Assembly (NCBI GenBank): GCA_965230045.1
Contig: OZ245940.1
Span: 8,058 to 72,057, forward strand
Origin: Bacteroidales bacterium
Lineage (GTDB): Bacteria > Bacteroidota > Bacteroidia > Bacteroidales > WRLA01
DNA: 64,000 nucleotides
Direction of reading: 5' to 3'
Shown here: positions 34,870 through 49,419 of the stretch, piece after piece
Layout: each line of letters begins with the position of its first letter
How positions within the stretch are numbered: the first letter of the stretch is position 1
Translations under genes and position numbers: made by a program
Notes under the pieces: model-generated
What the model was told of the DNA's origin: nothing
Database searches by the model: none
What the model saw: only the letters and a program-made list of their open reading frames with translations

Positions 34870-35217
34870 ATGGATTATACAAATCAAAAAAGCAGAAGCC
34901 TGTTCTTTAACGAGAAAGGTAAAGTGCATCAGGCATTAGTTGATACAATTATATATATCGAATGTACTGGCAGTATATCCTCTATACACCTCCTTGATCA
35001 AAACAAATGCATTCACTGTTGTGAACCACTAAAAGATATCGAGGAACGTTTAGATGGGCTTAATTTTTATAGGATCAATAGAAATACTTTGCTCAATCTG
35101 AGATATTTCTCAAAATTTGTATCCGGGGAAAAAAGACTTATTCAAATCCTTAATGGTGAAGAATTAAAAGTTTCCAGAAGGCGCTGGCAAGAAATCCGAA
35201 ATATGCTAAAACAATAA
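34870..35217 (+). CDS. Stand-alone LytTR DNA-binding domain regulator
   Basis: 115 aa. ...IIYIECTGSISSIHLLDQNKCIHCCEPLKDIEERLDGLNFYRINRNTLLNLRYF... matches the LytTR pattern. There is no receiver domain. Confidence 0.8.
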   Translation: MDYTNQKSRSLFFNEKGKVHQALVDTIIYIECTGSISSIHLLDQNKCIHCCEPLKDIEERLDGLNFYRINRNTLLNLRYFSKFVSGEKRLIQILNGEELKVSRRRWQEIRNMLKQ

Positions 35218-35318
35218 ACCGCTCATTTATAAAAACGAACCGTTCATCCCTTAAAACATACCGCTTATCAAATAAAACGACCATTTGAATAAAATCTTAA
35301 TATGAATACATATCTTTG
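35217..35318 (+). promoter_or_regulatory. Four phased direct repeats (candidate LytTR sites) plus a Bacteroidetes-type -7 box, cassette 1
   Basis: AACCGCTCAT (35217), AACCGTTCAT (35238), TACCGCTTAT (35259) and GACCATTTGA (35279) are spaced 21/21/20 bp. TATCTTTG (TAnnTTTG) lies at 35311-35318, and a fifth copy AACCATTCAT at 35345. Confidence 0.5.
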
Positions 35319-35719
35319 TTTTTGTATAATTATGCTAAGATATGAACCATTCATTTAGATATAAAGTCCGACAGCTTGTTTTAAAATGGAGTTATGCTTT
35401 CAGGGACAATAGAATGCGTTCCGGTCATTGTGACATTAAATTTATAACGGATCATTGCTTGTCTCCGGACTACCACAATAGACCTATAAGAACAATCTTG
35501 CTCAAAAATGACAGCGGAAATGGATTTATTAAATTTGTCTATTTAATTTCTAAGCATATTTTTATGCTGGGAAAGAATAAGTTCGACTGACTATACCGTT
35601 TCCGGATACATTAGAACCCGACCGGAACGGCATAATGTAGAATATACGTATTAAATGGGCTCTGCAATAACAAGTTACAGTATTAGAAAATTTATGAATT
35701 GGATTAAAAATCTTATAAT

Positions 35720-35929
35720 ATGAAAAAGAAAAAATTAAGTTTAAATAAAGTTAAAGTTGCAAAGCTGCAAGATACCAAGATGAATAATGTTATTGGAGGG
35801 AATTTGGCTGAACCAACCCATACATGTCGTGAAACACAAGTTACGTGTATGCTAACTTGCTTAGATCCTGACTCAATAGTGGCTTGTGAATTATCAAGTC
35901 CTTGTACAACTCTGTTTACTACCAATTAA
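35720..35929 (+). CDS. lanA: Lanthipeptide-type precursor peptide 1 (GG leader)
   Basis: Leader MKKKKLSLNKVKVAKLQDTKMNNVIGG. The 42-aa core has 5 Cys and 12 Ser/Thr. It sits upstream of a LanC gene. Confidence 0.8.
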   Translation: MKKKKLSLNKVKVAKLQDTKMNNVIGGNLAEPTHTCRETQVTCMLTCLDPDSIVACELSSPCTTLFTTN

Positions 35930-35959
35930 TTATTATTTTGAATATTTTCATGATTTTAT

Positions 35960-35984
35960 GGGTGTCCATAAAGGACACCCTTTT
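35960..35984 (+). terminator. Hairpin plus T4 immediately after precursor gene 1 (candidate leaky terminator/attenuator)
   Basis: GGGTGTCC-ataaa-GGACACCC followed by TTTT. Confidence 0.5.
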
Positions 35985-36000
35985 ACAATATCAGCATTAT

Positions 36001-37344
36001 ATGAAAAGATTATATTTATTATTAGTACTACTTTCTACGTATCAATTACTTTTCTCACAAAACAATACCGTTGTGAAAGGAACCGTAATTGAAGAAAATA
36101 CCGGGCAACCATTGCCCAATGTAGCCATCCAGATTTGGCCGGGCAGCAAATTCGGAAGCATAAGCAACAAAGAAGGAAGGTTTAAAATCAACACAGACAA
36201 AGATAGCATAACATTGAAGTTCTCTCACATCTCGTCCGTGCCGAAACTATTAAAAGTCAATGCTAAAGCCGTGTCAGACTCCAACCTCCTTGTTACATTG
36301 AGTCCGTTTTCATACACCCTTGATGCCGTGGAAATCAGCGAAGAGAGATATGAAACGATCTATAAAAAACCCAATCAATCGGTTATTGATTACGAAATTT
36401 ACGATCACCGCATCTACTTCCTGCTGAAAGATTACTCCAATAGGAAATACCAGCTGATTTCGGTTGATGAAAACCTTAGGGACACAATCTTTAGCACTCC
36501 TCCCGGCAAGCCCAGGGGAATTATTATTGATTTTTATGGCAACCTGGATATTGTTTCAAAATCGAATTCTGTTTATCAGATTATTATTGAAAACGGCCAG
36601 ATTAACTATCTGGAACCCTTCAATTATTCAAAACTCGAAAAAGTAAATGAACTATATGATTTCAAAATTGACAGCAATTATTATTTTTCTGAATATAAGA
36701 CAAAAATCAATGATAAAATCTGCTACTACACAATAAACAGGAGCACCAAAAATATTTTTCACACCATTATAGACGATAAGAAAGTTGATTATATTTTTCA
36801 AGAACTACGGTTTTTATTGCCAAAGAAATTTTTTAACTCTGGTGTTCCTCCTGGAGATGAGAGAAGAGCCTTTATTAATAATATGTATGACAATCACGAA
36901 ATTACCTTTGATCTAAATTATCATTACAACAACATATGGAATGTATTCTTCAATATTGAAAATGAAATATATATCATTGATAACATCAAAAACAAGCTAT
37001 TAAAGTTTGATAAAAGAGGCAAGCTCGTCTCAGAGCTCAACATAACACACAGCAATGATGATGAAAAAGCTTTCAGTTTGCTGGAAATGGAAGAAGGGCG
37101 GATATGGAAGGACAAGGCATTGATAGACAACTGCAATAACGGAAAAGCATATTTCTTATGGAAACAGGGCGCCAGAACCGAGCTTTATTCATTAGATCTC
37201 AAGAGCGGCGAGATCTCATTTATTGAAACACTGCCCCATGTTTTCCCCATTAAAATAAAGGTGTATAACAACACCATTTATTATTTATACCAGAAAATTG
37301 GCAACAGCAGGAATTATGGGCTTTATAGAATGTATATAAATTAA
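36001..37344 (+). CDS. Secreted protein X1: CarboxypepD_reg-like N-domain plus an uncharacterised beta-rich (propeller-like) domain
   Basis: Signal peptide MKRLYLLLVLLSTYQLLFSQ. VKGTVIEENTGQPLPNVAIQIWPGSKFGSISNKEGRFKI resembles a carboxypeptidase-regulatory-like fold. Later repeats such as EIYIIDNIKNKLLKFDKRGKLV resemble NHL/6-bladed propeller strands. Confidence 0.6.
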   Translation: MKRLYLLLVLLSTYQLLFSQNNTVVKGTVIEENTGQPLPNVAIQIWPGSKFGSISNKEGRFKINTDKDSITLKFSHISSVPKLLKVNAKAVSDSNLLVTLSPFSYTLDAVEISEERYETIYKKPNQSVIDYEIYDHRIYFLLKDYSNRKYQLISVDENLRDTIFSTPPGKPRGIIIDFYGNLDIVSKSNSVYQIIIENGQINYLEPFNYSKLEKVNELYDFKIDSNYYFSEYKTKINDKICYYTINRSTKNIFHTIIDDKKVDYIFQELRFLLPKKFFNSGVPPGDERRAFINNMYDNHEITFDLNYHYNNIWNVFFNIENEIYIIDNIKNKLLKFDKRGKLVSELNITHSNDDEKAFSLLEMEEGRIWKDKALIDNCNNGKAYFLWKQGARTELYSLDLKSGEISFIETLPHVFPIKIKVYNNTIYYLYQKIGNSRNYGLYRMYIN

Positions 37345-37354
37345 GAATAGATTG

Positions 37355-38527
37355 ATGAATGTGGATTTGCTATTAAAAAAAGTGTACGAATCATTGTCGC
37401 CTGTAAATGAGGTAAGTGTTCATGGATTTTATTCTGATACTTCGGGAATCTCCCTTTTCCTTTTTTATTATTCCTTAATGCTAAATGATGAAAAGTGTTA
37501 CAATAAAGCGGTAATGCTTCTTGAAAAAACTTTGATGTCTTATTACCAAACCAGAATTGCGCCTTCTGACATTGCCAGATTGGGTTGGCTTTTACTAAAT
37601 CTTGATAGTAATGATTTTTTAGAGACTGATATTAATGAATTGATTGAGAAGAGTGTGAATAAAGTTTTATTCGAAAAAGTTTTGGATTATCTAAAAAATG
37701 ACAATTACGACTTCTTGCATGCTGCACTTGGTATCATTCAGTACTTTTTGAGCAAAAATGATATAGAAAGTCGGTTCTATGTTTCAGAATTTGTTGATGA
37801 ATTTGCAGAAAAGGCAGAAAGGGTAAAAGATAATGAGCTGAAATGGCTGTCAACATTAGACATCAGAACAAAAACAAAAGGCTATAATATCAGCATGTCG
37901 CACGGTCTGGCAAGCATTATCACTATGCTGAGCAAGATATACAAACAGGGAATTAACCAGGATAAAACGAAGTACTTACTTGAAGGAGCCGTGAATTATC
38001 TGCTGCAACAAAAATTGCCCAATGGCAAGTATATTTCTGTTTTCCCAAACTTTGCCATAGAAAGCATGAAAAATTTGGCCCCGAGCCGTCTTGCCTGGTG
38101 TTATGGCGATCTTGGCATTTCTGTAGCAATATGGCATGCATCACAGGCGCTTGGGCGAAAAGATTGGGAAGAAAAAGCCATTAACATTCTGCTCCACTCT
38201 GCCCAGCGAAGGGATTTGAAAGAAAACAGCGTAATAGATGCAGGGCTTTGCCATGGTACAGCTGGCATTGCACATATTTATAACCGTATGTATGGCTATA
38301 CGGGTGTTGAAGAACTGAAAGAAGCTTCTGAATACTGGTTCGGCCAAACCCTTAAAATGGCACGCTTTGAGGATGGTTTGGCGGGTTACAAGGCCTGGCA
38401 TGGGCTTGATAAAGGATGGAAAAATGAGACAGGACTGCTGGAAGGAATTGCAGGCATTGGTCTTGCCATGATTTCTGCTGTTTCGGATATAGAGCCTGCA
38501 TGGGACGAATGTTTGTTGTTAAGTTAG
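37355..38527 (+). CDS. lanC: LanC-like lanthipeptide cyclase 1
   Basis: The motifs SMSHGLASI (catalytic His), LAWCYGDLG (WCxG, Zn Cys) and LCHGTAGI (CHG, Zn Cys/His) are at LanC-typical spacing. About 390 aa. Confidence 0.85.
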   Translation: MNVDLLLKKVYESLSPVNEVSVHGFYSDTSGISLFLFYYSLMLNDEKCYNKAVMLLEKTLMSYYQTRIAPSDIARLGWLLLNLDSNDFLETDINELIEKSVNKVLFEKVLDYLKNDNYDFLHAALGIIQYFLSKNDIESRFYVSEFVDEFAEKAERVKDNELKWLSTLDIRTKTKGYNISMSHGLASIITMLSKIYKQGINQDKTKYLLEGAVNYLLQQKLPNGKYISVFPNFAIESMKNLAPSRLAWCYGDLGISVAIWHASQALGRKDWEEKAINILLHSAQRRDLKENSVIDAGLCHGTAGIAHIYNRMYGYTGVEELKEASEYWFGQTLKMARFEDGLAGYKAWHGLDKGWKNETGLLEGIAGIGLAMISAVSDIEPAWDECLLLS

Positions 38528-38578
38528 ATTGAGATGCTGGAGGCACTGAAAAGAACGCCGAAATATGCTAAAACAATA

Positions 38579-38680
38579 AACCGCTCATTTATAAAAATGA
38601 ACCGTTCATCCCTTAAAACATACCGTTTATCAAATAAAACGACCATTTGAATAAAATCTTAATATGAATACATACCTTTG
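38579..38680 (+). promoter_or_regulatory. Phased direct repeats plus -7 box, cassette 2
   Basis: The same four repeats occur at identical spacing, with TACCTTTG at 38673-38680. The block is preceded by a copy of the last about 44 nt of lytTR. Confidence 0.5.
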
Positions 38681-39081
38681 TTTTCGTATTGTTAAGCAAA
38701 GTTATGAACCATTCATTTAGATATAAAGTCCGACAGCTTGTTTTAAAATGGAGTTATGCTTTCAGGGACAATAGAATGCGTTCCGGTCATTGTGACATTA
38801 AATTTATAACGGTTCATTGCTTGTCTCCGGACTACCACAATAGACCTATAAAAACAATCTTGCTCAAAAAAGACAGCGGAAATGGATTTAATAAATTCGT
38901 CTATCTAATTTCTAAGCATATTTTTATGCTGGGAAAGAATAAGTTCGACAGGCTATGCCGTTTCCGGATACATTAGAACCCGACAGGAACGGCATAATGT
39001 AGAATATACGTATTAAATGGGCTCTGCAATAACAAGTTACAGTATTAGAAAATTTAAGAATTGGATTAAATATCTTATAAT

Positions 39082-39282
39082 ATGAAAAAGAAAAAAATAA
39101 AATTGGTTCTTACTAAAAGGACTATATCAAATTTGCAAGATTTTGAAATGAAACGGGTTCTTGGAGGAGAAGAGCCTACGAAAAATGTCACCTGCGCTAC
39201 ATGCATAGAAACTAAATATCCCGCATGTGGATGGTCTGGCTGTTGGGGGCCACGCACTTGTGCAATTACAACTACAGATTAG
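39082..39282 (+). CDS. lanA: Lanthipeptide-type precursor peptide 2 (GG leader, divergent)
   Basis: Leader MKKKKIKLVLTKRTISNLQDFEMKRVLGG. The 37-aa core EEPTKNVTCATCIETKYPACGWSGCWGPRTCAITTTD has 5 Cys and 9 Ser/Thr. Confidence 0.8.
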   Translation: MKKKKIKLVLTKRTISNLQDFEMKRVLGGEEPTKNVTCATCIETKYPACGWSGCWGPRTCAITTTD

Positions 39283-39296
39283 TTATCCTATTTTTG

Positions 39297-39340
39297 ACCT
39301 CCAATTGTGAGTATAATAGTATCACCATTGGAGGTTATTT
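39297..39340 (+). terminator. Hairpin after precursor gene 2
   Basis: ACCTCCAAT...ATTGGAGGT (39297-39335) followed by TATTT. Confidence 0.4.
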
Positions 39341-39393
39341 CTAATGGTGTGATATTGTTTGTGTTTTGATCAATTATATATATTCTAATAGTT

Positions 39394-40758
39394 TTGAAAA
39401 AAAAGATATTTAAATTTTTGTTTACTGCTTTATTAATATCAACAGTACAAGTTGGAGTATTTGGGCAATCTTCTATAATAGTTACAGGTGTTGTTAGAAA
39501 TAATCCTGATGTAAATATCTCAGTTTTAGAAACAAGTTATGGAACTATCACTAATGAAACTGGGCACTACTCTTTGGAGGTTTTTGCAGAAGCTGAGAAA
39601 ACGCAATTACTCTTCTCAAAAATTGGATATAGGGACACAATTGTACAGCTACGAAAAGAAGATATTAATATAGACACAATTTTATTAAATATTACACTAA
39701 ATAAACATTCATACCTCCTTCCGGAATTTAAGGTTAAGTCCAGCCCATATTTTTTCAGTACTTCAAACTCTATTATTCTCGATATTGAATTCATTGATAA
39801 TTTGCTGTTTGTATTAAATCGTAAGCAAAATAGATCCGAGCTTATTTTATTAGACGAAAATGGTAGTGTGCTATCTGTACAGCAGGTTAATAATAAGTAC
39901 AATGAAATTTTTAGAGATTGTTTCGGTAACTATGAATTAATCGGGAATGATTCGTGTTTGCAGTTGCATTATAATTCTTTGGATACGTCATTCAATGCAG
40001 TCGATAAATTTACAACTGCAGCTTTTAATAAAAAAATTAAACCCTTCGTTTTAAACCTTGGTTGTATGTTTCTAACTAAAGATTATTTTGAAAAAAACAG
40101 CGCAATTGTGAGCAAACATCACAACCAGAAAGTTAATTACTATTATATTGACACTTGTAAGCCCGTAAAAAATAAAAAATTACTGGTTAGCTTCTTTGAT
40201 TCTGTGGCTTATAATATTGCTGCCAGTTATTATTCGGATATAATTTCATTGTATTATGCGACAACACCGTCTAGCCAGAATCTTATAGAGTCTGGTGTCT
40301 GGAATGGAAATATTCTAAAGCTTATTAACAATAACCATAGATTGTTTAATTTAATTTCTTGGTACTTGTCAGTAGAAGCCAAGCCTGTTGAAATTGATGT
40401 GTTTGTTGATAACAACGAAATAATTTTTTATAATCATCAGAATTTCACTATCCTCAGATATAATAAATCTTTCGTTCTTATGGATAAAGGGACTGTATTT
40501 ATGCAGAATGGAGTTAAAATAGATAATATTTTGCAAGATGATATAACCGGAACTATATATGCTTCACAACTTAAGAATGGAATTAATTATATTGGTAAAT
40601 TTGATATAAAAAGCGGAAAAGTACGTAAGCAAGTTAAGTCACATACAACTCCATTTCCTAAAATATTCAGAATCCATAATAATGCTGTGTACTGCGTCTA
40701 CTATGATAGTATTAAAAGAAGAAGTACTGTTATCAGAAAGTCACTATATGAAAGATAA
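39394..40758 (+). CDS. Secreted protein X2 (divergent paralog of X1/X3)
   Basis: Same length class and architecture. It has a signal peptide and VTGVVRNNPDVNISVLETSYGTITNETGHYSL (CarboxypepD_reg-like). The C-terminus ...IHNNAVYCVYYDS...VIRKSLYE parallels ...VYNNTIYYLYQKI...LYRMYIN. The start codon is TTG or a nearby alternative. Confidence 0.55.
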   Translation: MKKKIFKFLFTALLISTVQVGVFGQSSIIVTGVVRNNPDVNISVLETSYGTITNETGHYSLEVFAEAEKTQLLFSKIGYRDTIVQLRKEDINIDTILLNITLNKHSYLLPEFKVKSSPYFFSTSNSIILDIEFIDNLLFVLNRKQNRSELILLDENGSVLSVQQVNNKYNEIFRDCFGNYELIGNDSCLQLHYNSLDTSFNAVDKFTTAAFNKKIKPFVLNLGCMFLTKDYFEKNSAIVSKHHNQKVNYYYIDTCKPVKNKKLLVSFFDSVAYNIAASYYSDIISLYYATTPSSQNLIESGVWNGNILKLINNNHRLFNLISWYLSVEAKPVEIDVFVDNNEIIFYNHQNFTILRYNKSFVLMDKGTVFMQNGVKIDNILQDDITGTIYASQLKNGINYIGKFDIKSGKVRKQVKSHTTPFPKIFRIHNNAVYCVYYDSIKRRSTVIRKSLYER

Positions 40759-40765
40759 TAAAATT

Positions 40766-41496
40766 ATGAAAATTCTTTTGGATAAGAAGTTAGATGAAAT
40801 TTCTAGGGTCTTATTGAACTCAAATTTAACAATAACACAATCAGAAAATTTGCTTGGTGACAAATCAGGTATTGCTCTTTTCTTGTTCCAATATAGCCAA
40901 TTTAAAAATGAAGCAAAATATTACGACTTTGCTTATGAAATACTTGAAAGCATTGCCAATGTATATCGCGAAAATCAAATTTTACCAACTTCAATATCAA
41001 AATTTGAATGGTTACTATTGTATCTGGAGAAACAAGGAATTATTGATTTAGATATTGAAAATATTCATGAAGATATCGACTATCATTTATACGAAGTCGC
41101 AAATGCTTGTCTTCAAAAGTATGGTTATGATTTTTTGCACGGAGCTTTAGGTATTGTGCTTTATTTTTTGAAAAAAAATGATGATCTAACCAGTAATTTC
41201 ATATTTAATCTCATTAATACTCTAGAGCTAGTTTCTGATAAGACTCAAAGTAATATTGTTAAATGGCTTTCCGTTATTGATTATAAAACAAGTGAAACGG
41301 CATACAATATCAGCATGTCGCACGGTCTGGCAAGCATTATCGCTATGCTGAGCAAGATATACAAACAGGGAATTAATCAGGATAAAACGAAGTACTTACT
41401 TGAAGGAGCCGTGAATTATCTGCTGCAACAAAAATTGCCCAATGGCAAGTATATTTCTGTTTTCCCAAACTTTGCCATAGAAAGCATGAAAAATTT
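40766..41496 (+). pseudogene. lanC: lanC2, 5' fragment (interrupted by IS66)
   Basis: The N-terminal about 180 codons are divergent. From about 41300 (YNISMSHGLASII...) the sequence is nearly nucleotide-identical to lanC1. The frame is cut after ...ESMKNL by the IS end GTAAGCC. Confidence 0.85.
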
Positions 41497-41565
41497 GTAA
41501 GCCTTCAGCAAAAGGCATATTGCACAAGCTTTTAAAGCTTCCGTTCTTTGCTGCAAAAAAGCAAT

Positions 41566-41853
41566 ATGCAAAAAGAACAAAGAAGAGCAGAGATGAAAAC
41601 ACTGGTGGATCAATGGCATACCAGTGGCCAAAGCAAAAGATCCTTTGCCGAATCACACAAAATCTGCTATCACACTTTCCTTTATTGGTATCATAAATTT
41701 GAACAGGAAGAAAGCTTGCCTGATGGCCATGGGTTCATTGAGCTTTCCGGGACTCCAGCTGCAGGGATTATCATCCGTTATCCCAATGGTATCGAGCTCA
41801 ACCTTCCGGGCAATGTGCCCTTGTCCTATCTCAAATCGCTCACCGGCCAATAA
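41566..41853 (+). CDS. tnpA: IS66 accessory protein TnpA
   Basis: Small HTH-like protein in the first position of the IS66 operon. Its stop overlaps the tnpB start (TAATG). Confidence 0.7.
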   Translation: MQKEQRRAEMKTLVDQWHTSGQSKRSFAESHKICYHTFLYWYHKFEQEESLPDGHGFIELSGTPAAGIIIRYPNGIELNLPGNVPLSYLKSLTGQ

Positions 41854-42218
41854 TGTTCAGCTTAACAGCCAGCCGCTATTACCTGTACCGCCAGCCCACC
41901 GATATGCGCAAGAGCTTTGATGGGCTGTATGGCATTGTGCGCAACAAACTGGACAAAAACCCAATGAGCGGTGATGTTTTCCTGTTCATCAACAAAAAGC
42001 GCGACCGCATAAAACTGCTGCGCTGGGAAAGCGGAGGTTTTGTGCTGTTCTACAAAAGGCTCGAAAAAGGCACTTTTCACCTGCCGGACACATCTGCTGC
42101 GCACGCCTCCCACCAGCTGATCGACTACCCTGAACTTGTAATGATAATCAATGGTATTTCCATGAAAAATGCAAGGAAATACCCACGTTTTTTCCCACAT
42201 GAAAATGTTGGTAAATAG
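41853..42218 (+). CDS. tnpB: IS66 Orf2 (TnpB)
   Basis: ...YLYRQPTDMRKSFDGLYGIV...GDVFLFINKKRDRIKLLRWESGGFVLFYKRLEKGTF is the hallmark IS66 TnpB pattern. Confidence 0.85.
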   Translation: MFSLTASRYYLYRQPTDMRKSFDGLYGIVRNKLDKNPMSGDVFLFINKKRDRIKLLRWESGGFVLFYKRLEKGTFHLPDTSAAHASHQLIDYPELVMIINGISMKNARKYPRFFPHENVGK

Positions 42219-42265
42219 CGCTTAAAATATAGTCAGCCAAGAGGTTACTTCCGTATCTTTGCCTC

Positions 42266-43720
42266 ATGGCAAGTCAGGAAAATATAACTATATCAAAAGC
42301 GGAATATGATGCAATGCAACAGAAAATATTCCTGCTTCAGCATGAACTTGTCCAGTTGAGGCGTGCGATCTATGGAGCCAAAAGCGAACGGCATATCGCG
42401 GCAGACCCCAACCAGGGCGTGCTTTTTGACGTGCCTGCACAGGAGAAAGAGCCGGAAAAGGAGCAGATCAGCTATACGCGCAATAAAAAGCAGTCCAAAA
42501 AACAGCCCGTGCGCTTAGAACTGCCCGCCCACCTGCCGCGCCATGAAATCATCATCGAACCCCAAAACCTGCCCAAAGGCGCCCATAGGGTCAACGTAAA
42601 AATCACCGAAGTACTTGATTATGTGCCCGGGACTTTTCGTGTGATCCGTTATATACGTCCTTATTATGCCGTAGCAGGCCAGGGCGAAAGCACCCAAATG
42701 ATTTGTGCAGAACTACCTTCGCGCGCCTTGTTCAAAAGCAATGCCTCAGAAGGCCTGCTCTCTTATGTGACTGTCAGCAAATTTGTTGACCACCTGCCAT
42801 TCTACCGCCTTGTCAAGATGTTCAAGCGCATGGGGATCGAAATAGCCGAATCAACAATAAACGGCTGGTTTAGCGGGGTTTGCAGATTGCTTGAGCCGCT
42901 TTACGATGCCCTGAAAAAAGAAATCATGAGGACCGATTACCTGATGGCAGACGAAACGCCTATAAAGGTATTGACCAAAGACAAGCCCGGGGCATCGCAC
43001 AAAGGGTATCACTGGGTTTATTACGACCCGCTTAAAAAACTGGCCCTGTTCGATTACCGGAAAGGCCGCGGGCGGGAAGGCCCGGATGAGATGCTGGAAA
43101 ACTATAGTGGATATTTGCAAACCGATGGCTACACCGCTTACGACAACCTAAAAAACAAAGCCGAAATCACCCAATTGGCCTGCATGGCGCATGCACGCAG
43201 GTATTTTGAGAAAGCCAAGGACAATGATGCTGCACGCAGTGAATATGCGCTGGGGCAGATAAGAAAACTGTATGCCATTGAACGTCAGGCAAGTGAGCAA
43301 GAGCTACAGCCGGAGGAGGTCAAAGCATTGCGGCAAAAGGAATCAATGCCCATATTGAACGAAATGGAAAGCTGGCTTAAGGAAGAAGTTTATAAAGTAG
43401 CGCCCAAAAGCGCAATCGGCAAAGCCATAGCTTACAGCCTGAAATTATGGGGGCGCCTGATCCGTTATATTGAAGACGGAAGGCTGCGCATTGACAACAA
43501 CCTGGTTGAAAACAGCATCAGGCCGGTAGCCATAGGGCGCAAGAATTACCTGTTTGCGGGTTCGCACAATGCAGCCCAGCACGCGGCTATGATCTACTCC
43601 TTTTTTGCCAGCTGCAAAATCCAAAATGTCGAACCCTTCGAGTGGCTCAAGCAAACATTAGAAAAAATCCAGGAACACCCAGCCAACAAGCTCCATCAAC
43701 TCCTGCCCGGACAGATTTAA
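42266..43720 (+). CDS. tnpC: IS66-family DDE transposase (TnpC)
   Basis: N-terminal coiled-coil/zipper, ...YLMADETPIKVL...HKGYHWVY...GYLQTDGYTAYD...CMAHARRYF...RIDNNLVENSIRPVAIGRKNYLFAGS. Confidence 0.9.
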   Translation: MASQENITISKAEYDAMQQKIFLLQHELVQLRRAIYGAKSERHIAADPNQGVLFDVPAQEKEPEKEQISYTRNKKQSKKQPVRLELPAHLPRHEIIIEPQNLPKGAHRVNVKITEVLDYVPGTFRVIRYIRPYYAVAGQGESTQMICAELPSRALFKSNASEGLLSYVTVSKFVDHLPFYRLVKMFKRMGIEIAESTINGWFSGVCRLLEPLYDALKKEIMRTDYLMADETPIKVLTKDKPGASHKGYHWVYYDPLKKLALFDYRKGRGREGPDEMLENYSGYLQTDGYTAYDNLKNKAEITQLACMAHARRYFEKAKDNDAARSEYALGQIRKLYAIERQASEQELQPEEVKALRQKESMPILNEMESWLKEEVYKVAPKSAIGKAIAYSLKLWGRLIRYIEDGRLRIDNNLVENSIRPVAIGRKNYLFAGSHNAAQHAAMIYSFFASCKIQNVEPFEWLKQTLEKIQEHPANKLHQLLPGQI

Positions 43721-43771
43721 AACATTATCCGGTTATATGCAAGATGCTGTTCGCCGTAGGCTTACAAAAAT

Positions 43772-44224
43772 TTGGCCCCGAGCCGTCTTGCCTGGTGCTA
43801 TGGAGATCTCGGCATTTCAGTGGCAATTTGGCATGCATCACAGGCGCTTGGGCGAAAAGATTGGGAAGAAGAAGCCATTAACATTCTGCTCCACTCTGCC
43901 CAGCGAAGGGATTTGAAAGAAAACAGCGTAATAGATGCAGGGCTTTGCCATGGTACAGCTGGCATTGCACATATTTATAACCGTATGTATGGCTATACGG
44001 GTGTTGAAGAACTAAAAGAAGCTTCTGAATACTGGTTCGGCCAAACCCTTAAAATGGCACGCTTTGAGGATGGTTTGGCGGGCTACAAGGCCTGGCATGG
44101 GCTTGATAAAGGATGGATAAACGAACCTGGACTGCTGGAAGGAATTGCCGGCATTGGTCTTGCCATGATTTCTGCTGTTTCGGATATAGAGCCTGCATGG
44201 GACGAATGTTTGTTGTTAAGTTAG
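43772..44224 (+). pseudogene. lanC: lanC2, 3' fragment
   Basis: It continues lanC2 in frame after the TSD (APSRLAWCYGDLG...CHGTAGI...ECLLLS). It is nearly identical to the 3' parts of lanC1 and lanC3. Confidence 0.85.
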
Positions 44225-44275
44225 ACTGAGATACTGAAGGCGCTGGCAGGAACTCCGAAATATGCTAAACCAATA

Positions 44276-44377
44276 AACCACTCATTTATAAAAATGAACC
44301 GTTCATCCCATAAAACATACCGTTTATCAAATAAAACGACCATTTGAATAAAAACTTAATATGAATACATACCTTTG
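44276..44377 (+). promoter_or_regulatory. Phased direct repeats plus -7 box, cassette 3
   Basis: AACCACTCAT, AACCGTTCAT, TACCGTTTAT and GACCATTTGA occur at the same spacing, with TACCTTTG at 44370-44377. The block is preceded by a lytTR 3'-end copy (GAAGGCGCTGGCAGGAACTCCGAAATATGCTAAACCAATAA). Confidence 0.5.
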
Positions 44378-44778
44378 TTTTTGTATTATTAAGCTAAGAT
44401 ATGAACCATTCATTTAGATATAAAGTCCGACTGCCTGTACTGAAATGGAATGATGCTTTCAGGAACAATAGAATGTGTTCCGGTCATTATGACATTAAAT
44501 TTATAACGGACCATTGCTTGTCTCCGGACTACCACAATAGACTTATAAGAACAATCTTGCTCAAAAAAGACAGCGGAAATGGATTCAGCGAATTTGTCTA
44601 TCTAATTTCTAACCGTATTTTTATGCTGGGAAAGAATAAGTTCGACAGGCTATGCCGTTTCCGGATACACCAGAACCCGACCGAAACGGCATAATGTAGA
44701 ATAAACGTATTAAATGGGTTCTGCAATAACAAGTTACAGTATTAGAAAATTTAAGAATTGGATTAAAAATCTTATAAT

Positions 44779-45003
44779 ATGAAAAAGAAAAAATTAAGTT
44801 TAAATAAAGTTAAAGTTGCAAAGCTGCAAGATACCAAGATGAATAATGTTATTGGAGGGAATTTGGCTGAACCAACCGATACATGTCGTGAAACAGAGCT
44901 TACCTGTATACTAACTTGTCTAGATCCTAACTCATTGGATGTATGCGAAACATCAAGTCCTTGTTTTACTCATTGGACCGATTGTAATACTTGTTGGTGT
45001 TAA
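44779..45003 (+). CDS. lanA: Lanthipeptide-type precursor peptide 3 (leader identical to peptide 1)
   Basis: The 27-aa leader is identical to peptide 1. The 47-aa core has 8 Cys and 12 Ser/Thr and diverges from peptide 1 mainly in its C-terminal third (...SSPCFTHWTDCNTCWC). Confidence 0.8.
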   Translation: MKKKKLSLNKVKVAKLQDTKMNNVIGGNLAEPTDTCRETELTCILTCLDPNSLDVCETSSPCFTHWTDCNTCWC

Positions 45004-45019
45004 TGAAATATAGTAATTA

Positions 45020-45044
45020 GGGTGTCCATAAAGGGCGCCCTTTT
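45020..45044 (+). terminator. Hairpin plus T4 after precursor gene 3
   Basis: GGGTGTCC-ataaa-GGGCGCCC followed by TTTT. The two A-to-G changes relative to cassette 1 keep pairing only as G-U in plus-strand RNA. Confidence 0.45.
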
Positions 45045-45060
45045 ACAATATCAATATTAG

Positions 45061-46401
45061 ATGAAAAAATTATATTTATTATTAGTAATACTATCTGCGC
45101 ATCAATTACTTTTCTCACAAAACAATTCCGTTGTGAAAGGAACCGTAATTGAAGAAAATACCGGGCAACCACTTGCCAATGTAGCCATCCAGATTTGGCC
45201 GGGCAGCAAATTCGGAAGCATAAGCGACAAAGAAGGAAGGTTTAAAATCAACACAGACAGAGATAGCATAACATTGAAGTTCTCTCACATCTCATCCAAA
45301 CCGAAACTGCTAAAAATCAATATCAAAACCGTTTCAGATTCCAATCTGGTGGTTACATTAATGCCATTTTCATACACCCTTGATGCAGTGGAAATTAGCG
45401 AAGAAAAATATGAAACGATCTATAAAAAACCCAACCAATCGGTTATTGATTATGAAATTTATAATCACCGCATCTACTTCCTGCTGAAAGATTACGCCAA
45501 TATGAAATACCAGCTGATTTCGGTAGATGAAAACCTTAGAGACACAATCTACAGTAGCCCTCCCGGCAAGCCCCGGGGAATTATTATTGATTTTTATGGC
45601 AACCTGGATATTGTTTCAAAATCGAATTCTGTTTATCAGATTATTATTGAAAACGATCAAATAAACTATCTGGAACCCTTCAATTATTCAAAGCTCAAGA
45701 AAGTAAACGAACTGTACGATTTTAAGATTGATAGCAATTATTATTTTTCTGAGTTCCAAACAAAAATAAAAGACATAATTAATTATGGAAAAATTAATAG
45801 AGGAAGTAAGAATATTTTCTATTCACTATTTGATGAGGATAAGATAAACTATTTTTATGATGAGATGAGATTTTTGGGATTGTTTAATAAGTGTTATTCA
45901 GCTCCACCTGGAGAAAAAAGAAGGGATATAGTTACAAAGCTTTATGACAGGCAAGAGATAAACTTCACTGTAAACTTTATGTATAACCACATTTCAAACG
46001 CCTATTTTCATATAAAGGACAGTATATACATTATAGATAATATCAATAACAAGCTATTGAAGTTTGATAAAAACGGCAAGCTCGTCTCAGAGCTCAACAT
46101 AACACACATCCATGACGATGAAAAAGCTTACAAGCTTTTGGAAAGAGAAGAAGGGCGGATATGGAAAGACAAGGCATTGATAGACAATTGCAATAATGAA
46201 AAAGCATATTTTTTATGGAAAGAGGGTGCAAAAACCGATCTATACAGCCTTGACCTTAGCGGTGGAGAGATCTCATTTATTGAAACACTGCCCCATGTTT
46301 TCCCCATTAAAATAAAGGTGTATAACAACACCATTTATTATTTATACCAGAAAATTGGCAACAGCAGGAATTATGGGCTTTATAGAATGTATATAAATTA
46401 A
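45061..46401 (+). CDS. Secreted protein X3 (paralog of X1)
   Basis: It is collinear with X1. The N- and C-terminal thirds are near-identical, and the central segment (about 45790-46050) is strongly divergent. Confidence 0.6.
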   Translation: MKKLYLLLVILSAHQLLFSQNNSVVKGTVIEENTGQPLANVAIQIWPGSKFGSISDKEGRFKINTDRDSITLKFSHISSKPKLLKINIKTVSDSNLVVTLMPFSYTLDAVEISEEKYETIYKKPNQSVIDYEIYNHRIYFLLKDYANMKYQLISVDENLRDTIYSSPPGKPRGIIIDFYGNLDIVSKSNSVYQIIIENDQINYLEPFNYSKLKKVNELYDFKIDSNYYFSEFQTKIKDIINYGKINRGSKNIFYSLFDEDKINYFYDEMRFLGLFNKCYSAPPGEKRRDIVTKLYDRQEINFTVNFMYNHISNAYFHIKDSIYIIDNINNKLLKFDKNGKLVSELNITHIHDDEKAYKLLEREEGRIWKDKALIDNCNNEKAYFLWKEGAKTDLYSLDLSGGEISFIETLPHVFPIKIKVYNNTIYYLYQKIGNSRNYGLYRMYIN

Positions 46402-46411
46402 AAATGAATTG

Positions 46412-47584
46412 ATGAATGTGGATTTGCTATTAAAAAAAGTGTACGAATCATTGTCGTCTGTAAATGAGGTAAGTGTTCATGGATTTTATTCTGATACTTC
46501 GGGAATCTCCCTTTTCCTTTTTTATTATTCCTTAATGCTAAATGATGAAAAGTGTTACAATAAAGCGGTAATGCTTCTTGAAAAAACTTTGATGTCTTAT
46601 TACCAAACCAGAATTGCGCCTTCTGACATTGCCAGATTGGGTTGGCTTTTACTAAATCTTGATAGTAATGATTTTTTAGAGACTGATATTAATGAATTGA
46701 TTGATAAGAGTGTGAATAAAGTTTTATTCGAAAAAGTTTTGGATTATCTAAAAAATGACAATTACGACTTCTTGCATGGTGCACTTGGTATCATTCAGTA
46801 CTTTTTGAGCAAAAATGATATAGAAAGTCGGTTCTATGTTTCAGAATTTGTTGATGAATTTGCAGAAAAGGCAGAAAGGGCAAAAGATAATGAGCTGAAA
46901 TGGCTGTCAACATTAGACATCAGAACAAAAACAAAAGGCTATAATATTAGCATGTCGCACGGTCTGGCAAGCATTATCGCTATGCTGAGCAAGATATACA
47001 AACAGGGAATTAATCAGAATAAAACAAAGTACTTACTTGAAGGAGCCATGAATTATCTGCTGCAACAAAAATTGCCCAATGGCAAGTATATTTCTGTTTT
47101 CCCAAACTTTGCCATAGAAAGCATGAAAAATTTGGCCCCGAGCCGTCTTGCCTGGTGTTATGGCGATCTTGGCATTTCTGTAGCAATATGGCATGCCTCA
47201 CAAGCCCTGGGGCGAAAGGATTGGGAAGAAGAAGCCATTAGAATTCTACTCCATTCTGCCCGTCGAAGGGATTTGAAAGAAAACAGCGTAATAGATGCAG
47301 GGCTTTGCCATGGTACAGCTGGCATTGCACATATTTATAACCGTATGTATGGCTATACGGGTGTTGAAGAACTAAAAGAAGCTTCTGAATACTGGTTCGG
47401 CCAAACCCTTAAAATGGCACGCTTTGAGGATGGTTTGGCGGGTTACAAGGCCTGGCATGGGCTTGATAAAGGATGGAAAAATGAACCGGGACTACTGGAA
47501 GGAATCGCAGGCATTGGTCTTGCCATGATTTCTGCTGTTTCGGATATAGAACCTGCATGGGACGAATGTTTGTTGTTAAGTTAG
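46412..47584 (+). CDS. lanC: LanC-like lanthipeptide cyclase 3
   Basis: Near-identical to lanC1, with the same HG / WCYG / CHG motifs. Confidence 0.85.
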   Translation: MNVDLLLKKVYESLSSVNEVSVHGFYSDTSGISLFLFYYSLMLNDEKCYNKAVMLLEKTLMSYYQTRIAPSDIARLGWLLLNLDSNDFLETDINELIDKSVNKVLFEKVLDYLKNDNYDFLHGALGIIQYFLSKNDIESRFYVSEFVDEFAEKAERAKDNELKWLSTLDIRTKTKGYNISMSHGLASIIAMLSKIYKQGINQNKTKYLLEGAMNYLLQQKLPNGKYISVFPNFAIESMKNLAPSRLAWCYGDLGISVAIWHASQALGRKDWEEEAIRILLHSARRRDLKENSVIDAGLCHGTAGIAHIYNRMYGYTGVEELKEASEYWFGQTLKMARFEDGLAGYKAWHGLDKGWKNEPGLLEGIAGIGLAMISAVSDIEPAWDECLLLS

Positions 47585-47590
47585 ATTTGT

Positions 47591-48490: not shown

Positions 48491-48842
48491 CAAGTCAGGC
48501 TAAGCAAACCCGTATATTCCGTAAGTCACAAAAGCAGCTTTCTTTTAACAGCTCTTGTTGCCTTGATATTTTAATGCGCATAAAAAAAGTTTTTGATGCG
48601 CATGAAAAATTATTTCTACGCCTGTTATCATCAATTTAAATACTTGAAGTAATAGCAATAAAGTGATTTCACAAAAAATCAGGTACATTCACCAAAATCC
48701 AGTCGAAGAGGGCCTGGTGTTTTATCCTGAGGATTATTTGTACTTAGTGCATTGGATTATGCAGGAAAAAAAGGGATACTCGAAGATGTTATTGTGGTTG
48801 ATATTTAAGCAGTACCGCGCGTGAGGACACGCGCGGTAGCTG
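48449..48842 (+). mobile_element. Remnant of a REP-flanked Y1 (RAYT/IS200-like) transposase: two inverted hairpins around a degraded gene fragment
   Basis: The hairpins CCGCGCGTG-tcct-CACGCGTGG (48464-48485) and CCGCGCGTG-agga-CACGCGCGG (48815-48836) are in inverted orientation. Outer CAGCTACC / GGTAGCTG motifs flank them. Between them, 48651-48808 translates (with one frameshift) to ...VISQKIRYIHQNPVEEGLVFYPEDY / ..LSALDYAGKKGILEDVIVVDI*, which is the typical C-terminus of Y1_Tnp-type transposases. Confidence 0.5.
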
Positions 48843-48857
48843 GGGGAAACACTTTTA

Positions 48858-49355: not shown

Positions 49356-49419
49356 TCATAGTGCTAGTGCAGCATTATATTTTGTAATAAGCTGAGTTAT
49401 TTCCTAATATCTTTGCCCC

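What the first reader, a model, noticed from the sequence alone, without database searches (positions are those of the whole stretch)
35174..47584. Three tandem [0.5-kb leader - GG-leader precursor - 450-aa secreted protein - LanC] cassettes, created by a duplication whose boundary lies inside the lytTR 3' end
Each cassette contains the same four parts.
- A conserved non-coding leader.
- A 66-74 aa peptide with a Bacteroidetes-style MKKKK...(I/L)GG leader and a Cys/Ser/Thr-rich core.
- An about 450-aa signal-peptide protein.
- A 391-aa LanC with HG, WCYG and CHG motifs.

The last about 44 nt of the LytTR gene (GAAGGCGCTGGCA..AAATATGCTAAAACAATAA, 35174-35217) recurs right after the stop codons of lanC1 (about 38530-38580) and lanC2 (about 44236-44277). 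The repeat unit therefore runs from inside lytTR to the lanC stop, and only the third cassette is followed by lanB. Class I lanthipeptide loci that I know usually reiterate lanA next to a single lanB/lanC pair. Reiterating the cyclase and an unknown partner with every precursor is unusual. It suggests that each peptide needs its own dedicated pair of proteins.
Basis: partly seen in the sequence, partly recalled or inferred. Interest (0 to 1): 0.85.

Follow-up and report, generated by a model that had tools for sequence, protein, structure and literature searches.

The report
Eroded multi-cassette lanthipeptide gene array
Three tandem copies of a module (regulator-binding leader, lanthipeptide precursor, secreted beta-propeller protein, own cyclase) really are present, an uncommon layout that recurs in related Bacteroidales, but here the shared dehydratase and exporter are deleted and one cyclase is split by a mobile element, so the locus is probably dead.

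Summary
The repeat is real. Three units start 41 nt inside the lytTR 3' end (35177, 38539, 44236) and end at each lanC stop.

- lanC2 is split by a 2269-bp IS66 element (41497-43765, 8-bp target duplication). Removing it restores an intact 393-aa LanC.
- "lanB" is a 289-codon stump. Compared with an orthologous MAG locus, 5.26 kb is replaced by a 387-nt element bounded by inverted repeats. The lost genes are the rest of lanB, the elimination subunit, the C39-ABC exporter and the hlyD 5' part.
- Cassette 2 is a different cassette type, not a copy of cassette 1.

The 0.5-kb leader is non-coding. It opens with 3-4 direct repeats (ACCRYTYAT) at 21-nt phase, as expected for LytTR sites.

Precursor core, the secreted protein X and the N-terminal ~180 aa of LanC co-vary between cassette types. 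The catalytic half of LanC and the leader are homogenised.

The layout (stand-alone LytTR, several [lanA-(accessory)-lanC] units, one split LanB, one exporter) recurs in four other Bacteroidales contigs. X proteins also occur without lan genes. I infer a periplasmic immunity-like role for X, untested.

Verdict: a new variant of class I lanthipeptide clusters, decayed in this genome.

The parts
34870..35217 (+). Stand-alone LytTR DNA-binding protein (115 aa, no receiver domain). Its last 41 nt (35177-35217) are the first 41 nt of the repeat unit.
   Evidence: PF04397, E 4e-14, covers residues 18-113. Stops lie upstream in frame, so there is no sign of truncation. Stand-alone LytTR genes of 119 and 129 aa sit in the same position in L031 and L033.
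35218..35719 (+). Leader 1, non-coding. Direct repeats ACCGCTCAT, ACCGTTCAT and ACCGCTTAT lie at 35218, 35239 and 35260 (21-nt phase), with a degenerate fourth (ACCATTTGA, 35280). Then come TTTG (35284-35287) and TAtcTTTG (35311-35318), a candidate Bacteroidota -33/-7 promoter.
   Evidence: The motif occurs 19 times against 4.5 expected, and 12 of the 19 lie at the same relative positions in the three leaders. These columns are invariant in 7 leader copies from two genomes. The 82-codon ORF inside is not under coding constraint: variable sites by codon position are 10/9/13 and the stop is not conserved. No Rfam match.
35720..35929 (+). lanA1, 69-aa precursor (type A). Leader MKKKKLSLNKVKVAKL...IGG, with a core holding 5 Cys and many Ser/Thr.
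   Evidence: NF038153 lant_leader_L1a, 34.9 bits against a cutoff of 22. Carries the LxLxKx5L motif and GG end described for Bacteroidetes class I LanAs (PMC7268733).
36001..37344 (+). X1, 447-aa secreted protein: signal peptide, CarboxypepD_reg/SusC-NTE-like Ig domain, then a beta-propeller-like domain.
   Evidence: PF13715. AF2 model pLDDT 73.7. Foldseek returns only generic propellers. The N-terminal domain matches SusC residues 15-120.
37352..38527 (+). lanC1, 391-aa lanthionine cyclase, intact.
   Evidence: PF05147, E 2e-34. SHG183, WCYG249, CHG300.
38539..39081 (+). Copy of the lytTR 3' end (38539-38579) plus leader 2, with the same phased repeats at 38580, 38601 and 38622.
   Evidence: 95% identical to 35179-35738.
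39082..39282 (+). lanA2, 66-aa precursor (type B core ...YPACGWSGCWGPRTC...).
   Evidence: NF038153, 31.5 bits. The core is 60% identical to the L006 cassette-a precursor.
39394..40758 (+). X2, 454-aa secreted paralogue of X1 (27% identity).
   Evidence: PF13715, identity matrix. A database protein is 100% identical over 98% of X2 (446 aa), on a 5.14-Mb contig.
40766..41496 (+). lanC2, 5' part (divergent N-terminal module; homogenised from 41295 onward).
   Evidence: PF05147 profile 12-207. Nucleotide identity to lanC1 starts abruptly at 41295 = 37876.
41497..43765 (+). IS66-family insertion sequence inside lanC2. It carries tnpA (41548-41853), tnpB (41853-42218) and the DDE transposase (42266-43720). 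Ends are GTAAGCC...GGCTTAC. The 8-bp target duplication AAAAATTT lies at 41489-41496 and 43766-43773.
   Evidence: PF05717, PF03050, PF13007, PF13817. NF047593. Inverted repeats. Removing the IS and one duplication copy restores an open 393-aa LanC.
43774..44224 (+). lanC2, 3' part (catalytic half, 98% aa identity to LanC1).
   Evidence: PF05147 profile 220-350.
44236..44778 (+). Copy of the lytTR 3' end (44236-44276) plus leader 3, with repeats at 44277, 44298 and 44319.
44779..45003 (+). lanA3, 74-aa precursor (type A, with a different C-terminal tail ...NTCWC).
   Evidence: NF038153, 34.7 bits.
45061..46401 (+). X3, 446 aa (81% identical to X1).
   Evidence: PF13715 and PF13620.
46409..47584 (+). 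lanC3, 391 aa, intact.
   Evidence: PF05147, E 9e-36.
47591..48458 (+). lanB remnant: the first 289 codons of the glutamylation subunit. The ORF runs into the foreign element and stops at 48490.
   Evidence: PF04738 positions 1-242 of 649. 99% identical to residues 1-289 of the 744-aa L006 protein. Collinearity with L002 ends at 48458.
48459..48845 (.). 387-nt element bounded by 31-nt inverted repeats (48455-48485 and 48815-48845). It takes the place of 5.26 kb of the ancestral locus.
   Evidence: No other copy in the window or the fetched loci.
48858..49355 (+). hlyD remnant: C-terminal 165 aa of the membrane-fusion protein of the exporter.
   Evidence: TIGR01843 positions 257-413 of 422. Window 48846-51534 matches L002 18690-21377 at 96%.
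33099..34598 (-). ISNCY-family transposase gene immediately upstream of lytTR (context; another sign of IS activity at this locus).
   Evidence: NF033593, E 1e-113, above the cutoff.

Best explanation
This is a chromosomal, low-GC island carrying a class I lanthipeptide locus of the Bacteroidota GG-leader type, built as an array of self-contained cassettes.

Each cassette has four parts:
- A non-coding leader of about 0.5 kb. It starts with 3-4 direct 9-bp repeats at 21-nt phase, which I infer are binding sites for the stand-alone LytTR protein encoded just upstream. This would give each cassette its own co-regulated promoter.
- A precursor (lanA).
- A signal-peptide protein X, made of an Ig-like CarboxypepD_reg domain and a beta-propeller.
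- Its own cyclase (lanC).

In intact relatives the array is followed by one shared set of genes: a split dehydratase (744-aa glutamylation subunit plus 292-aa elimination subunit), a C39-peptidase ABC exporter and an HlyD adaptor.

Inferred pathway:
1. All precursors share the LxLxKx5L...GG leader and are dehydrated by the shared LanB.
2. Each is cyclised by the LanC of its own cassette. The N-terminal ~180 residues of LanC co-vary with the core peptide.
3. The shared exporter cleaves the leader after GG and exports the peptide.
4. X works outside the cytoplasm. Its most likely role is as a peptide-specific binding or self-protection protein, functionally like LanI. I give this sub-claim about 0.35.

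The conserved flanks (lytTR-3' remnant plus leader, and the 3' catalytic half of lanC) are kept about 94-98% identical by recombination. This allows cassettes to be duplicated, homogenised and swapped.

In this window the system is decayed. A recent IS66 insertion splits lanC2. A 5.26-kb deletion removed most of lanB, the elimination subunit, the exporter and the hlyD 5' part. Unless a second lanB and exporter exist elsewhere in the genome, no lanthipeptide can be made. lanA1-3, X1-3, lanC1 and lanC3 remain intact.
For: Shown by tool results:
- Repeat structure and the boundary inside lytTR.
- LanC identity and Zn/acid-base motifs.
- Precursor leader family.
- IS66 anatomy and clean restoration of lanC2.
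- The deletion, defined against the orthologous locus. That locus has the same downstream pseudouridine synthase and decarboxylase beta-subunit genes and is 94-96% identical at nucleotide level.
- The intact relative carries at least 5 LanC copies, then Lant_dehydr_N, Lant_dehydr_C, C39-ABC and HlyD.
- A single-cassette form lanA-X-lanC-lanBN-lanBC exists in a Draconibacterium MAG.
- Cassette types co-vary. Within type A, lanA cores are 60-93% identical, X 81-94% and the LanC N-part 92-98%. Between types, X is 26-31% and the LanC N-part 28-43%. Yet the LanC C-part of cassette 2 is 98% identical to that of cassette 1.
- The same mosaic appears in an independent genome: in L032 the lanC 3' half plus leader is 93% identical between cassettes while the centre is divergent.
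- Purifying selection: differences by codon position are 6/4/19 for lanC and 17/10/36 for X.
- Phased repeats: 19 motif matches against 4.5 expected, invariant across 7 leaders. Different 21-nt-phased repeats lie downstream of the lytTR genes of L031 and L033.
- Multi-LanC layouts with a stand-alone LytTR occur in L031 and L033; L032 repeats the X-LanC unit.
- GC is 31-36% in the island against 43% in the flanks.

For X as extracytoplasmic and immunity-like:
- It has an N-terminal signal peptide (read by inspection).
- It always lies directly after lanA.
- It co-diversifies with the core peptide.
- lanA-X pairs occur alone (L003).
- Orphan X arrays occur without lan genes.
- X genes stay intact here although the production genes are lost.
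Against: - No experiment exists. Nothing here shows transcription, LytTR binding, dehydration, cyclisation or any activity of X.
- LanC enzymes are generally regarded as substrate-tolerant (my own knowledge). Dedicated cyclases may therefore not be strictly needed, and co-variation could partly reflect linkage within a cassette.
- X has no similarity to known LanI/NisI/SpaI proteins. The only family hit is the generic PF13715.
- Most X-family members (846 clusters at 50% identity with E<=1e-10) appear unlinked to lan genes. Some lie in conserved positions next to housekeeping genes, which fits a general envelope function better than immunity.
- The candidate -33/-7 promoter has a 23-nt spacer. 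From my own knowledge the usual spacing is 19-21 nt.
- Only 64 kb of the genome was seen, so trans-complementing lanB and lanT genes cannot be excluded.
Confidence: 0.7

Rival explanations
1. Neutral segmental amplification. The cassettes are accidental tandem duplications from one illegitimate junction between the lanC 3' end and the lytTR 3' end. lanC and X are merely carried along with lanA. No peptide needs its own cyclase or X, and the array is now decaying.
For: The boundary lies inside a gene, which looks accidental. Cassettes 1 and 3 are about 90% identical. The locus is visibly eroding, with an IS66 in lanC2, a deletion and an ISNCY next door. L031 shows a plain 88% tandem duplication of lanA-lanC.
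Against: Cassette types have diverged to 26-31% (X) and 28-43% (LanC N-part), yet keep open reading frames, catalytic motifs and third-position bias. The multi-cassette state is kept in several genomes and contig lineages. Type C is shared between L006 and a Draconibacterium MAG. Redundant cyclases would be expected to be lost over such divergence.
Confidence: 0.2
2. X is not an immunity protein. It is a periplasmic maturation, export or sensing factor for the peptide. Examples are a chaperone that hands the exported peptide across the outer membrane, a scaffold for N-terminal trimming, or the sensor that feeds back to the receiver-less LytTR regulator.
For: X has a signal peptide and a SusC-NTE-like domain plus a propeller, resembling periplasmic or outer-membrane-associated scaffolds such as BamB. 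X-like pairs lie next to ECF sigma/anti-sigma and outer-membrane beta-barrel genes in L015. The LytTR protein has no receiver domain, so some other input is required. In L033 and L032 an S41 peptidase accompanies the cassettes.
Against: X has no protease or other catalytic domain, and the Asp residues invariant across the family could simply be structural propeller positions. L031 cassettes lack X altogether, so X is not required for making or exporting such peptides. Orphan X arrays without any lan gene are easier to explain as protection or a general envelope function.
Confidence: 0.3
3. The peptides are not lanthipeptides. They are substrates of another RiPP pathway that uses the same Bacteroidota GG leader, for example the radical-SAM-modified TIGR04149 family.
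For: lanA1 and lanA3 also pass TIGR04149 (26.8 and 25.9 bits against a cutoff of 25). L032 carries a radical SAM gene downstream of its cassettes.
Against: NF038153 (class I lanthipeptide leader) scores higher, at 34.9 and 34.7 bits. Each peptide is followed by a LanC with an intact Zn site, and in relatives by a split LanB. The cores are rich in Cys, Ser and Thr. No radical SAM gene lies in the locus, and the nearest radical SAM gene found in the window is the tRNA-modifying miaB.
Confidence: 0.04

Closest known systems
Pinensin-type Bacteroidota class I lanthipeptide clusters (split LanB, LanC, GG-leader LanA, C39-ABC exporter)
   Same: Precursors with the LxLxKx5L...GG leader and a C39 exporter (PMC7268733). 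Split LanB as in pinensin (PMC7268733). LanC of the Bacteroidota clade. NF038153 hit.
   Different: Here the precursor is reiterated together with its own LanC and a secreted protein X, each unit behind its own LytTR-box leader. The papers I could read describe reiterated lanA next to a single LanB/LanC. I could not read the two Pedobacter lusitanus papers.
Two-component class II lantibiotics (haloduracin, lichenicidin: LanM1/LanM2, one synthetase per peptide) - from my own knowledge
   Same: One dedicated cyclising enzyme per precursor within one locus, with a shared exporter.
   Different: Class II uses bifunctional LanM enzymes and exactly two peptides. Here dehydration is shared by one split LanB and only the cyclase is reiterated, up to at least 5 times in L006.
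LytTR-controlled bacteriocin loci of Gram-positives (pneumococcal blp, L. plantarum pln, S. mutans HdrR/BrsR stand-alone LytTR regulators) - from my own knowledge
   Same: LytTR regulator and phased direct repeats (9 bp + 12 bp) ahead of several bacteriocin operons. Mosaic peptide-plus-partner cassettes between conserved flanks. Natural variants that lost the exporter but keep the other genes.
   Different: Those peptides are unmodified class II bacteriocins in Firmicutes with small membrane immunity proteins. Here the peptides are Bacteroidota lanthipeptides with a 450-aa periplasmic propeller protein and a cyclase in each cassette.
Class I cluster with two LanC genes in Frankia sp. EAN1pec (Marsh et al. 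2010, PMC3091789)
   Same: More than one LanC in a class I cluster has been noted before.
   Different: That was a single remark on two LanCs in an actinobacterium. It involves no tandem precursor-linked cassette, no X protein and no LytTR boxes.
LanI immunity lipoproteins (NisI, SpaI) - from my own knowledge
   Same: Proposed functional analogy for X: an extracytoplasmic, peptide-specific protein encoded next to the precursor.
   Different: No sequence or fold similarity. X is not a lipoprotein (no Cys at the cleavage site) and has an Ig-like domain plus a beta-propeller.

Membership tests
Class I lanthipeptide biosynthetic locus | Stand-alone LanC cyclase with Zn-ligand and acid/base motifs | tested here: met
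   PF05147 for LanC1, LanC3 and both halves of LanC2. SHG, WCYG and CHG are present in all eight LanCs compared.
Class I lanthipeptide biosynthetic locus | Complete LanB dehydratase (glutamylation plus elimination domains) in the locus | tested here: not met
   The window holds only Lant_dehydr_N positions 1-242 of 649. tblastn finds no other LanB, LanB-C or LanT segment in the 64 kb. The complete set is present in the orthologous locus L002/L006.
Class I lanthipeptide biosynthetic locus | Precursor with a class I leader and a Cys/Ser/Thr-rich core | tested here: met
   NF038153 above its cutoff for all three peptides. LxLxKx5L and GG are read directly from the sequences.
Class I lanthipeptide biosynthetic locus | Dehydration and thioether rings in the product | not testable with these tools
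   Needs expression and mass spectrometry.
Double-glycine leader export (PCAT with HlyD adaptor) | C39-peptidase ABC transporter in the locus | tested here: not met
   Deleted in the window; only the HlyD C-terminal 165 aa remain. A 737-aa C39-ABC protein is present in L002.
LytTR-regulated promoter | LytTR-domain protein encoded at the locus | tested here: met
   PF04397, E 4e-14.
LytTR-regulated promoter | Direct 9-bp repeats spaced about 12 bp apart, upstream of the controlled genes | tested here: met
   ACCRYTYAT at 35218, 35239 and 35260, with matching sets in leaders 2 and 3. 19 matches against 4.5 expected. Invariant in 7 leaders.
LytTR-regulated promoter | Binding by the regulator and dependence of transcription on it | not testable with these tools
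   Needs EMSA or footprinting and a reporter assay.
IS66-family insertion sequence | tnpA, tnpB and DDE transposase genes, terminal inverted repeats, 8-bp target duplication | tested here: met
   PF05717, PF03050, PF13007, PF13817. NF047593. Inverted repeats and AAAAATTT duplication. Excision restores the lanC2 frame.
LanI-type lantibiotic immunity proteins (as a home for X) | Sequence or fold similarity to known LanI proteins | tested here: not met
   Pfam and NCBIfam give only PF13715 and a partial BamP N-terminal match far below its cutoff. Foldseek against the PDB returns only generic propellers.
LanI-type lantibiotic immunity proteins (as a home for X) | Confers protection against the cognate peptide | not testable with these tools
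   Needs a protection assay.

The most novel reading that the evidence does not exclude
A plug-and-play lanthipeptide array. Each cassette would carry a substrate-matched cyclase whose N-terminal ~180 residues form an exchangeable specificity module fused to a conserved catalytic half. It would also carry a new kind of periplasmic beta-propeller immunity protein. The conserved flanks (LytTR-box leader and lanC 3' half) would act as recombination handles that let strains shuffle peptide-immunity-cyclase modules behind one shared dehydratase and exporter. Genomes that lose the production genes would keep X genes as protection.
Probability: 0.25. Interest if true: 0.75.

Novelty: new variant of a known kind. 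Interest (0 to 1): 0.55.

Why it matters
Class I lanthipeptide enzymes are used as tolerant tools for making cyclic peptides. A natural system with one shared dehydratase and a separate cyclase for each core peptide would point to where LanC reads its substrate. The divergence is confined to the N-terminal ~180 residues. This makes a clean chimera experiment possible.

The X family comprises several hundred clusters of uncharacterised secreted Bacteroidota proteins. It has no assigned function, and its link to precursor genes gives a first handle on it.

The conserved-flank, variable-centre pattern suggests how Gram-negative bacteria diversify peptide arsenals.

For this genome the practical message is the opposite. 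The locus is a decayed remnant and should not be counted as a producing cluster.

Tried and rejected
- **82-codon ORF in each leader (35342-35590), called as a gene in L002.** Rejected as coding. Variable sites by codon position are 10/9/13, the stop is not conserved, and the frame is lost in the most divergent leader copy.
- **Structured RNA in the leader.** No Rfam hit at E<=1 or at gathering score. RNAalifold shows essentially no covariation because the copies are too similar. The hairpin at 35595-35633 is not better than shuffles (z = -1.1).
- **lytTR truncated by the upstream ISNCY element.** No support. Stops lie in frame upstream, and stand-alone LytTR genes of similar size sit at the same place in L031 and L033.
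- **X as a very rare family.** The word-indexed searches found only 10 and 17 relatives. The exhaustive profile search found 846 clusters at E<=1e-10.
- **First AF2 model of X.** Poor (pLDDT 55). A deeper alignment raised it to 73.7, but fold searches still gave only generic propellers.
- **PDB sequence search.** Recognised only the SusC-like N-terminal domain.
- **The two 499-aa ORFs (13051-14550 and 33099-34598).** They are unrelated: one is a T9SS-sorted protein, the other an ISNCY transposase.
- **The 387-nt IR element.** No further copies in the window or the fetched loci.
- **Literature.** The two Pedobacter lusitanus lanthipeptide papers (Caetano 2020, Bothwell 2021) are not held. I cannot exclude that a similar layout is mentioned there.
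- **Source contig.** An exact look-up of the source contig through X2 failed.

Full report

Yes in outline. Direct-repeat analysis gives three families whose copies start at 35177, 38539 and 44236. A self-BLAST shows 35177-38530 matching 44236-47587 at 89.7% over 3370 nt, and 35179-35738 matching 38541-39100 at 95%. The unit begins 41 nt before the stop of a 115-aa LytTR-domain gene (34870-35217; PF04397). In cassettes 2 and 3 the same 41 nt follow the lanC stop after about 12 unrelated nt (alignment A3).

Each unit holds three genes:
- A 66-74-aa peptide that passes NCBIfam NF038153, class I lanthipeptide leader.
- A 446-454-aa protein with a signal peptide and a CarbopepD_reg_2 domain.
- A LanC (PF05147) with SHG, WCYG and CHG motifs.

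**2.

- *lanC2 is not a 391-aa gene.* It is split by a 2269-bp IS66-family element (41497-43765). The element carries tnpA, tnpB and a DDE transposase, has GTAAGCC/GGCTTAC ends and an 8-bp target duplication AAAAATTT. Removing the element and one duplication copy restores an open 393-aa LanC, so the insertion is recent.
- *The 'lanB' after cassette 3 is a stump.* It covers Lant_dehydr_N positions 1-242 of 649.
- *A large deletion follows it.* An orthologous locus was found in a Bacteroidales MAG (contig CAXXOX010000002.1, fetched as L002 and L006; same downstream pseudouridine synthase and decarboxylase beta-subunit genes). Window 43766-48458 aligns to L002 8739-13434 at 94%, and window 48846-51534 to L002 18690-21377 at 96%. 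The 5.26 kb between these points in L002 holds the rest of lanB, the 292-aa elimination subunit, a 737-aa C39-ABC exporter and the 5' part of hlyD. In the window they are replaced by a 387-nt element bounded by 31-nt inverted repeats. What follows is only the C-terminal 165 aa of HlyD.
- *No other copy in the window.* tblastn finds no other LanB, LanB-C or exporter segment in the 64 kb.
- *More IS activity nearby.* An ISNCY transposase gene sits directly upstream of lytTR.

As far as the window shows, the locus cannot dehydrate or export anything.

**3. The leader**

The 0.5-kb leader is non-coding. The 82-codon ORF inside it shows no third-position bias (10/9/13) and its stop is not conserved. 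By contrast lanC (6/4/19) and X (17/10/36) do show the bias. There is no Rfam match and no covariation support for a structured RNA.

Its first 70 nt are the informative part. Immediately after the lytTR stop lie ACCGCTCAT, ACCGTTCAT and ACCGCTTAT at 35218, 35239 and 35260, plus a degenerate fourth repeat at 35280. This is a 9-bp repeat at 21-nt phase. The motif occurs 19 times in the window against 4.5 expected, and 12 of the 19 lie at equivalent leader positions. These columns are invariant in seven leader copies from two genomes, including the most divergent one.

From general knowledge of AgrA, ComE, PlnC and BlpR, this is the canonical LytTR site layout. The fourth repeat overlaps a TTTG, which is followed 23 nt later by TAtcTTTG. 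That is a plausible but slightly long-spaced Bacteroidota -33/-7 promoter. Different 21-nt-phased repeats lie downstream of the stand-alone lytTR genes of two unrelated loci (L031, L033). Binding itself is inferred, not shown.

**4. The cassettes are of different types**

I compared eight cassettes: three from the window, four from L006 and one from a Draconibacterium MAG (L014). The lanA core, X and the first ~180 residues of LanC co-vary.

| Comparison | lanA core | X | LanC N-part |
|---|---|---|---|
| Within type A (window 1, 3; L006 c, d) | 60-93% | 81-94% | 92-98% |
| Type C (L006 b vs L014) | 67% | 47% | 47% |
| Type B (window 2 vs L006 a) | 60% | 31% | 43% |
| Between types | not tabulated | 26-31% | 28-43% |

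The catalytic C-part of LanC is 63-77% identical between types in general. Between window cassettes 2 and 1 it is 98% identical, with an abrupt onset of nucleotide identity at 41295 = 37876.

The array therefore has conserved flanks and variable centres. The flanks are the lytTR-3' remnant plus leader on one side and the lanC 3' half on the other. The same mosaic occurs in an independent genome: in L032 the lanC 3' half plus leader is 93% identical between cassettes while the centre is divergent.

Cassette 2 of the window has no nucleotide counterpart in L006, where the equivalents of cassettes 1 and 3 are adjacent. Cassettes are therefore gained or lost between close relatives. The lytTR-derived junction is present at the cassette junctions aligned from L006, so it is old and not a recent accident.

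**5. How general is the layout?**

- L006/L002: at least five LanC copies, then split LanB, C39-ABC and HlyD.
- L014: one cassette, lanA-X-lanC-lanBN-lanBC.
- L021: lanA-X, then a second lanA followed by a secreted erythromycin-esterase-like protein, then LanC.
- L003: lanA-X only, followed by transposase remnants.
- L031: lytTR (119 aa), two lanA-lanC units and an extra lanA, then lanB, with no X.
- L032: X-LanC, then leader-lanA-X-LanC.
- L033: lytTR (129 aa), three LanCs with other accessory genes, split LanB, C39-ABC and HlyD.

The design 'stand-alone LytTR, several precursor-linked cyclases, one shared dehydratase and exporter' recurs in this LanC clade, which has 2581 homologues at E<=1e-40.

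On the literature side:
- Walker et al. describe the LxLxKx5L/GG leaders, the C39 proteases and split LanB (PMC7268733).
- A Bacteroidales survey found no LanB in 1136 genomes (PMC10352776).
- Marsh et al. noted one actinobacterial cluster with two LanCs (PMC3091789).

I found no description of this cassette design.

**6. Protein X**

X has a typical signal peptide (MKRLYLLLVLLSTYQLLFSQ..., read by inspection; no lipobox Cys). It therefore acts outside the cytoplasm, whereas LanB and LanC act inside.

The second AlphaFold model (pLDDT 73.7) shows an Ig-like N-terminal domain. That domain matches the N-terminal extension of SusC transporters by sequence. It is followed by a beta-propeller with helical inserts. 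Foldseek returns only generic propellers such as NHL, BamB, SMP30 and WD40 at low TM scores. No catalytic domain was detected, and the Asp residues invariant across the family alignment could simply be structural propeller positions.

The family is larger than the first searches suggested: 846 clusters at E<=1e-10. Most members lie in loci without lan genes, often as tandem pairs or triples of divergent paralogues.

My preferred reading is a peptide-specific periplasmic binding or self-protection protein. It rests on five points:
- X sits directly after lanA.
- X co-diversifies with the core peptide.
- lanA-X pairs occur alone.
- Orphan X arrays exist.
- X genes survive in this otherwise decayed locus.

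It is an inference at about 0.35. A maturation, export or sensing role is about equally possible.

**7. Mechanism, with status of each step**

- Shown: gene content, repeat anatomy, mobile-element damage, co-variation, and conservation in other genomes.
- Inferred from family knowledge: LytTR activates each cassette promoter. The shared split LanB dehydrates all precursors through the common leader. Each cassette's LanC cyclises its own core. The C39-ABC/HlyD exporter cleaves after GG and exports.
- Speculative: the role of X, the LanC N-terminal part as a specificity module, and the conserved flanks as recombination handles.

**8. Verdict**

This is a real and moderately unusual variant of a known system. 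In this genome it is a pseudogenised remnant. The island is low in GC (31-36% against 43% in the flanks), consistent with horizontal origin.

Interest is 0.55. The layout gives a testable handle on LanC substrate selection and on an uncharacterised protein family. However, it is an elaboration of class I lanthipeptide biosynthesis, not a new kind of system, and nothing here has been tested functionally.

Noticed in passing
window 12646-12986, 18042-18387, 19194-19556, 57196-57529: A repeated non-coding element of about 340 nt is present in four copies (75-91% identity, one inverted). It looks like a MITE or another dispersed repeat.
   Followed up: partly
window 48459-48845: A 387-nt element bounded by 31-nt inverted repeats (CCGCGCGTGTCCTCACGCG...) sits exactly at the 5.26-kb deletion. 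It has no transposase and no other copy in the window or the fetched loci. It may be a MITE or the remnant of an IS that caused the deletion.
   Followed up: partly
window 20900-22792 (- strand): The topA-like ORF (630 aa, GTG start) matches topoisomerase I models only from about position 172 onward. The N-terminal part may be missing or lie in another frame, which could mean a frameshift, a pseudogene or a sequencing error.
   Followed up: no
window 35177-49355 versus flanks: The lan island has 31-36% GC against about 43% in the flanking chromosome, and the IS66 element has 47.8%. This suggests horizontal acquisition of the island and a foreign origin for the IS.
   Followed up: partly
L001 8621-12737 (same arrangement in L007 and L008): Three X paralogues lie in tandem with no lanA, lanC or lanB nearby. 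They sit next to HTH regulators, a type I restriction-modification fusion gene and an IS21 element. Two of them are 78-92% identical to window X1.
   Followed up: partly
L017 7132-11362, L019 57-4453, L022-L027: Distant X-like proteins (21-31% identity) usually occur as a pair of divergent paralogues flanking a variable insert, such as an erythromycin-esterase-like gene or a DUF6088/AbiEii pair. In L017-L019 they lie next to a GatB_N-domain gene (with a GatD-like gene in L019). This conserved chromosomal position hints at a general envelope function.
   Followed up: no
L033 5134-8944: One multi-LanC cluster contains a 650-aa LanC-domain protein, far longer than the usual ~400 aa, and two tandem DUF6734 genes upstream of it. 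Their function is unknown.
   Followed up: no
L006 1152-2303: The relative's array begins with a LanC whose first ~46 residues are unrelated sequence. The match to LanC1 starts at residue 55, suggesting another rearrangement or insertion at the upstream end of that array. The lanC of its cassette a is also split into two ORFs (4601-5065 and 5025-5795).
   Followed up: no
window 30026-32708: ORFs for a sigma-54-dependent response regulator (454 aa) and a histidine kinase (461 aa) overlap by 68 nt. They lie upstream of the ISNCY element. It is unclear whether they were once linked to the lan locus.
   Followed up: no
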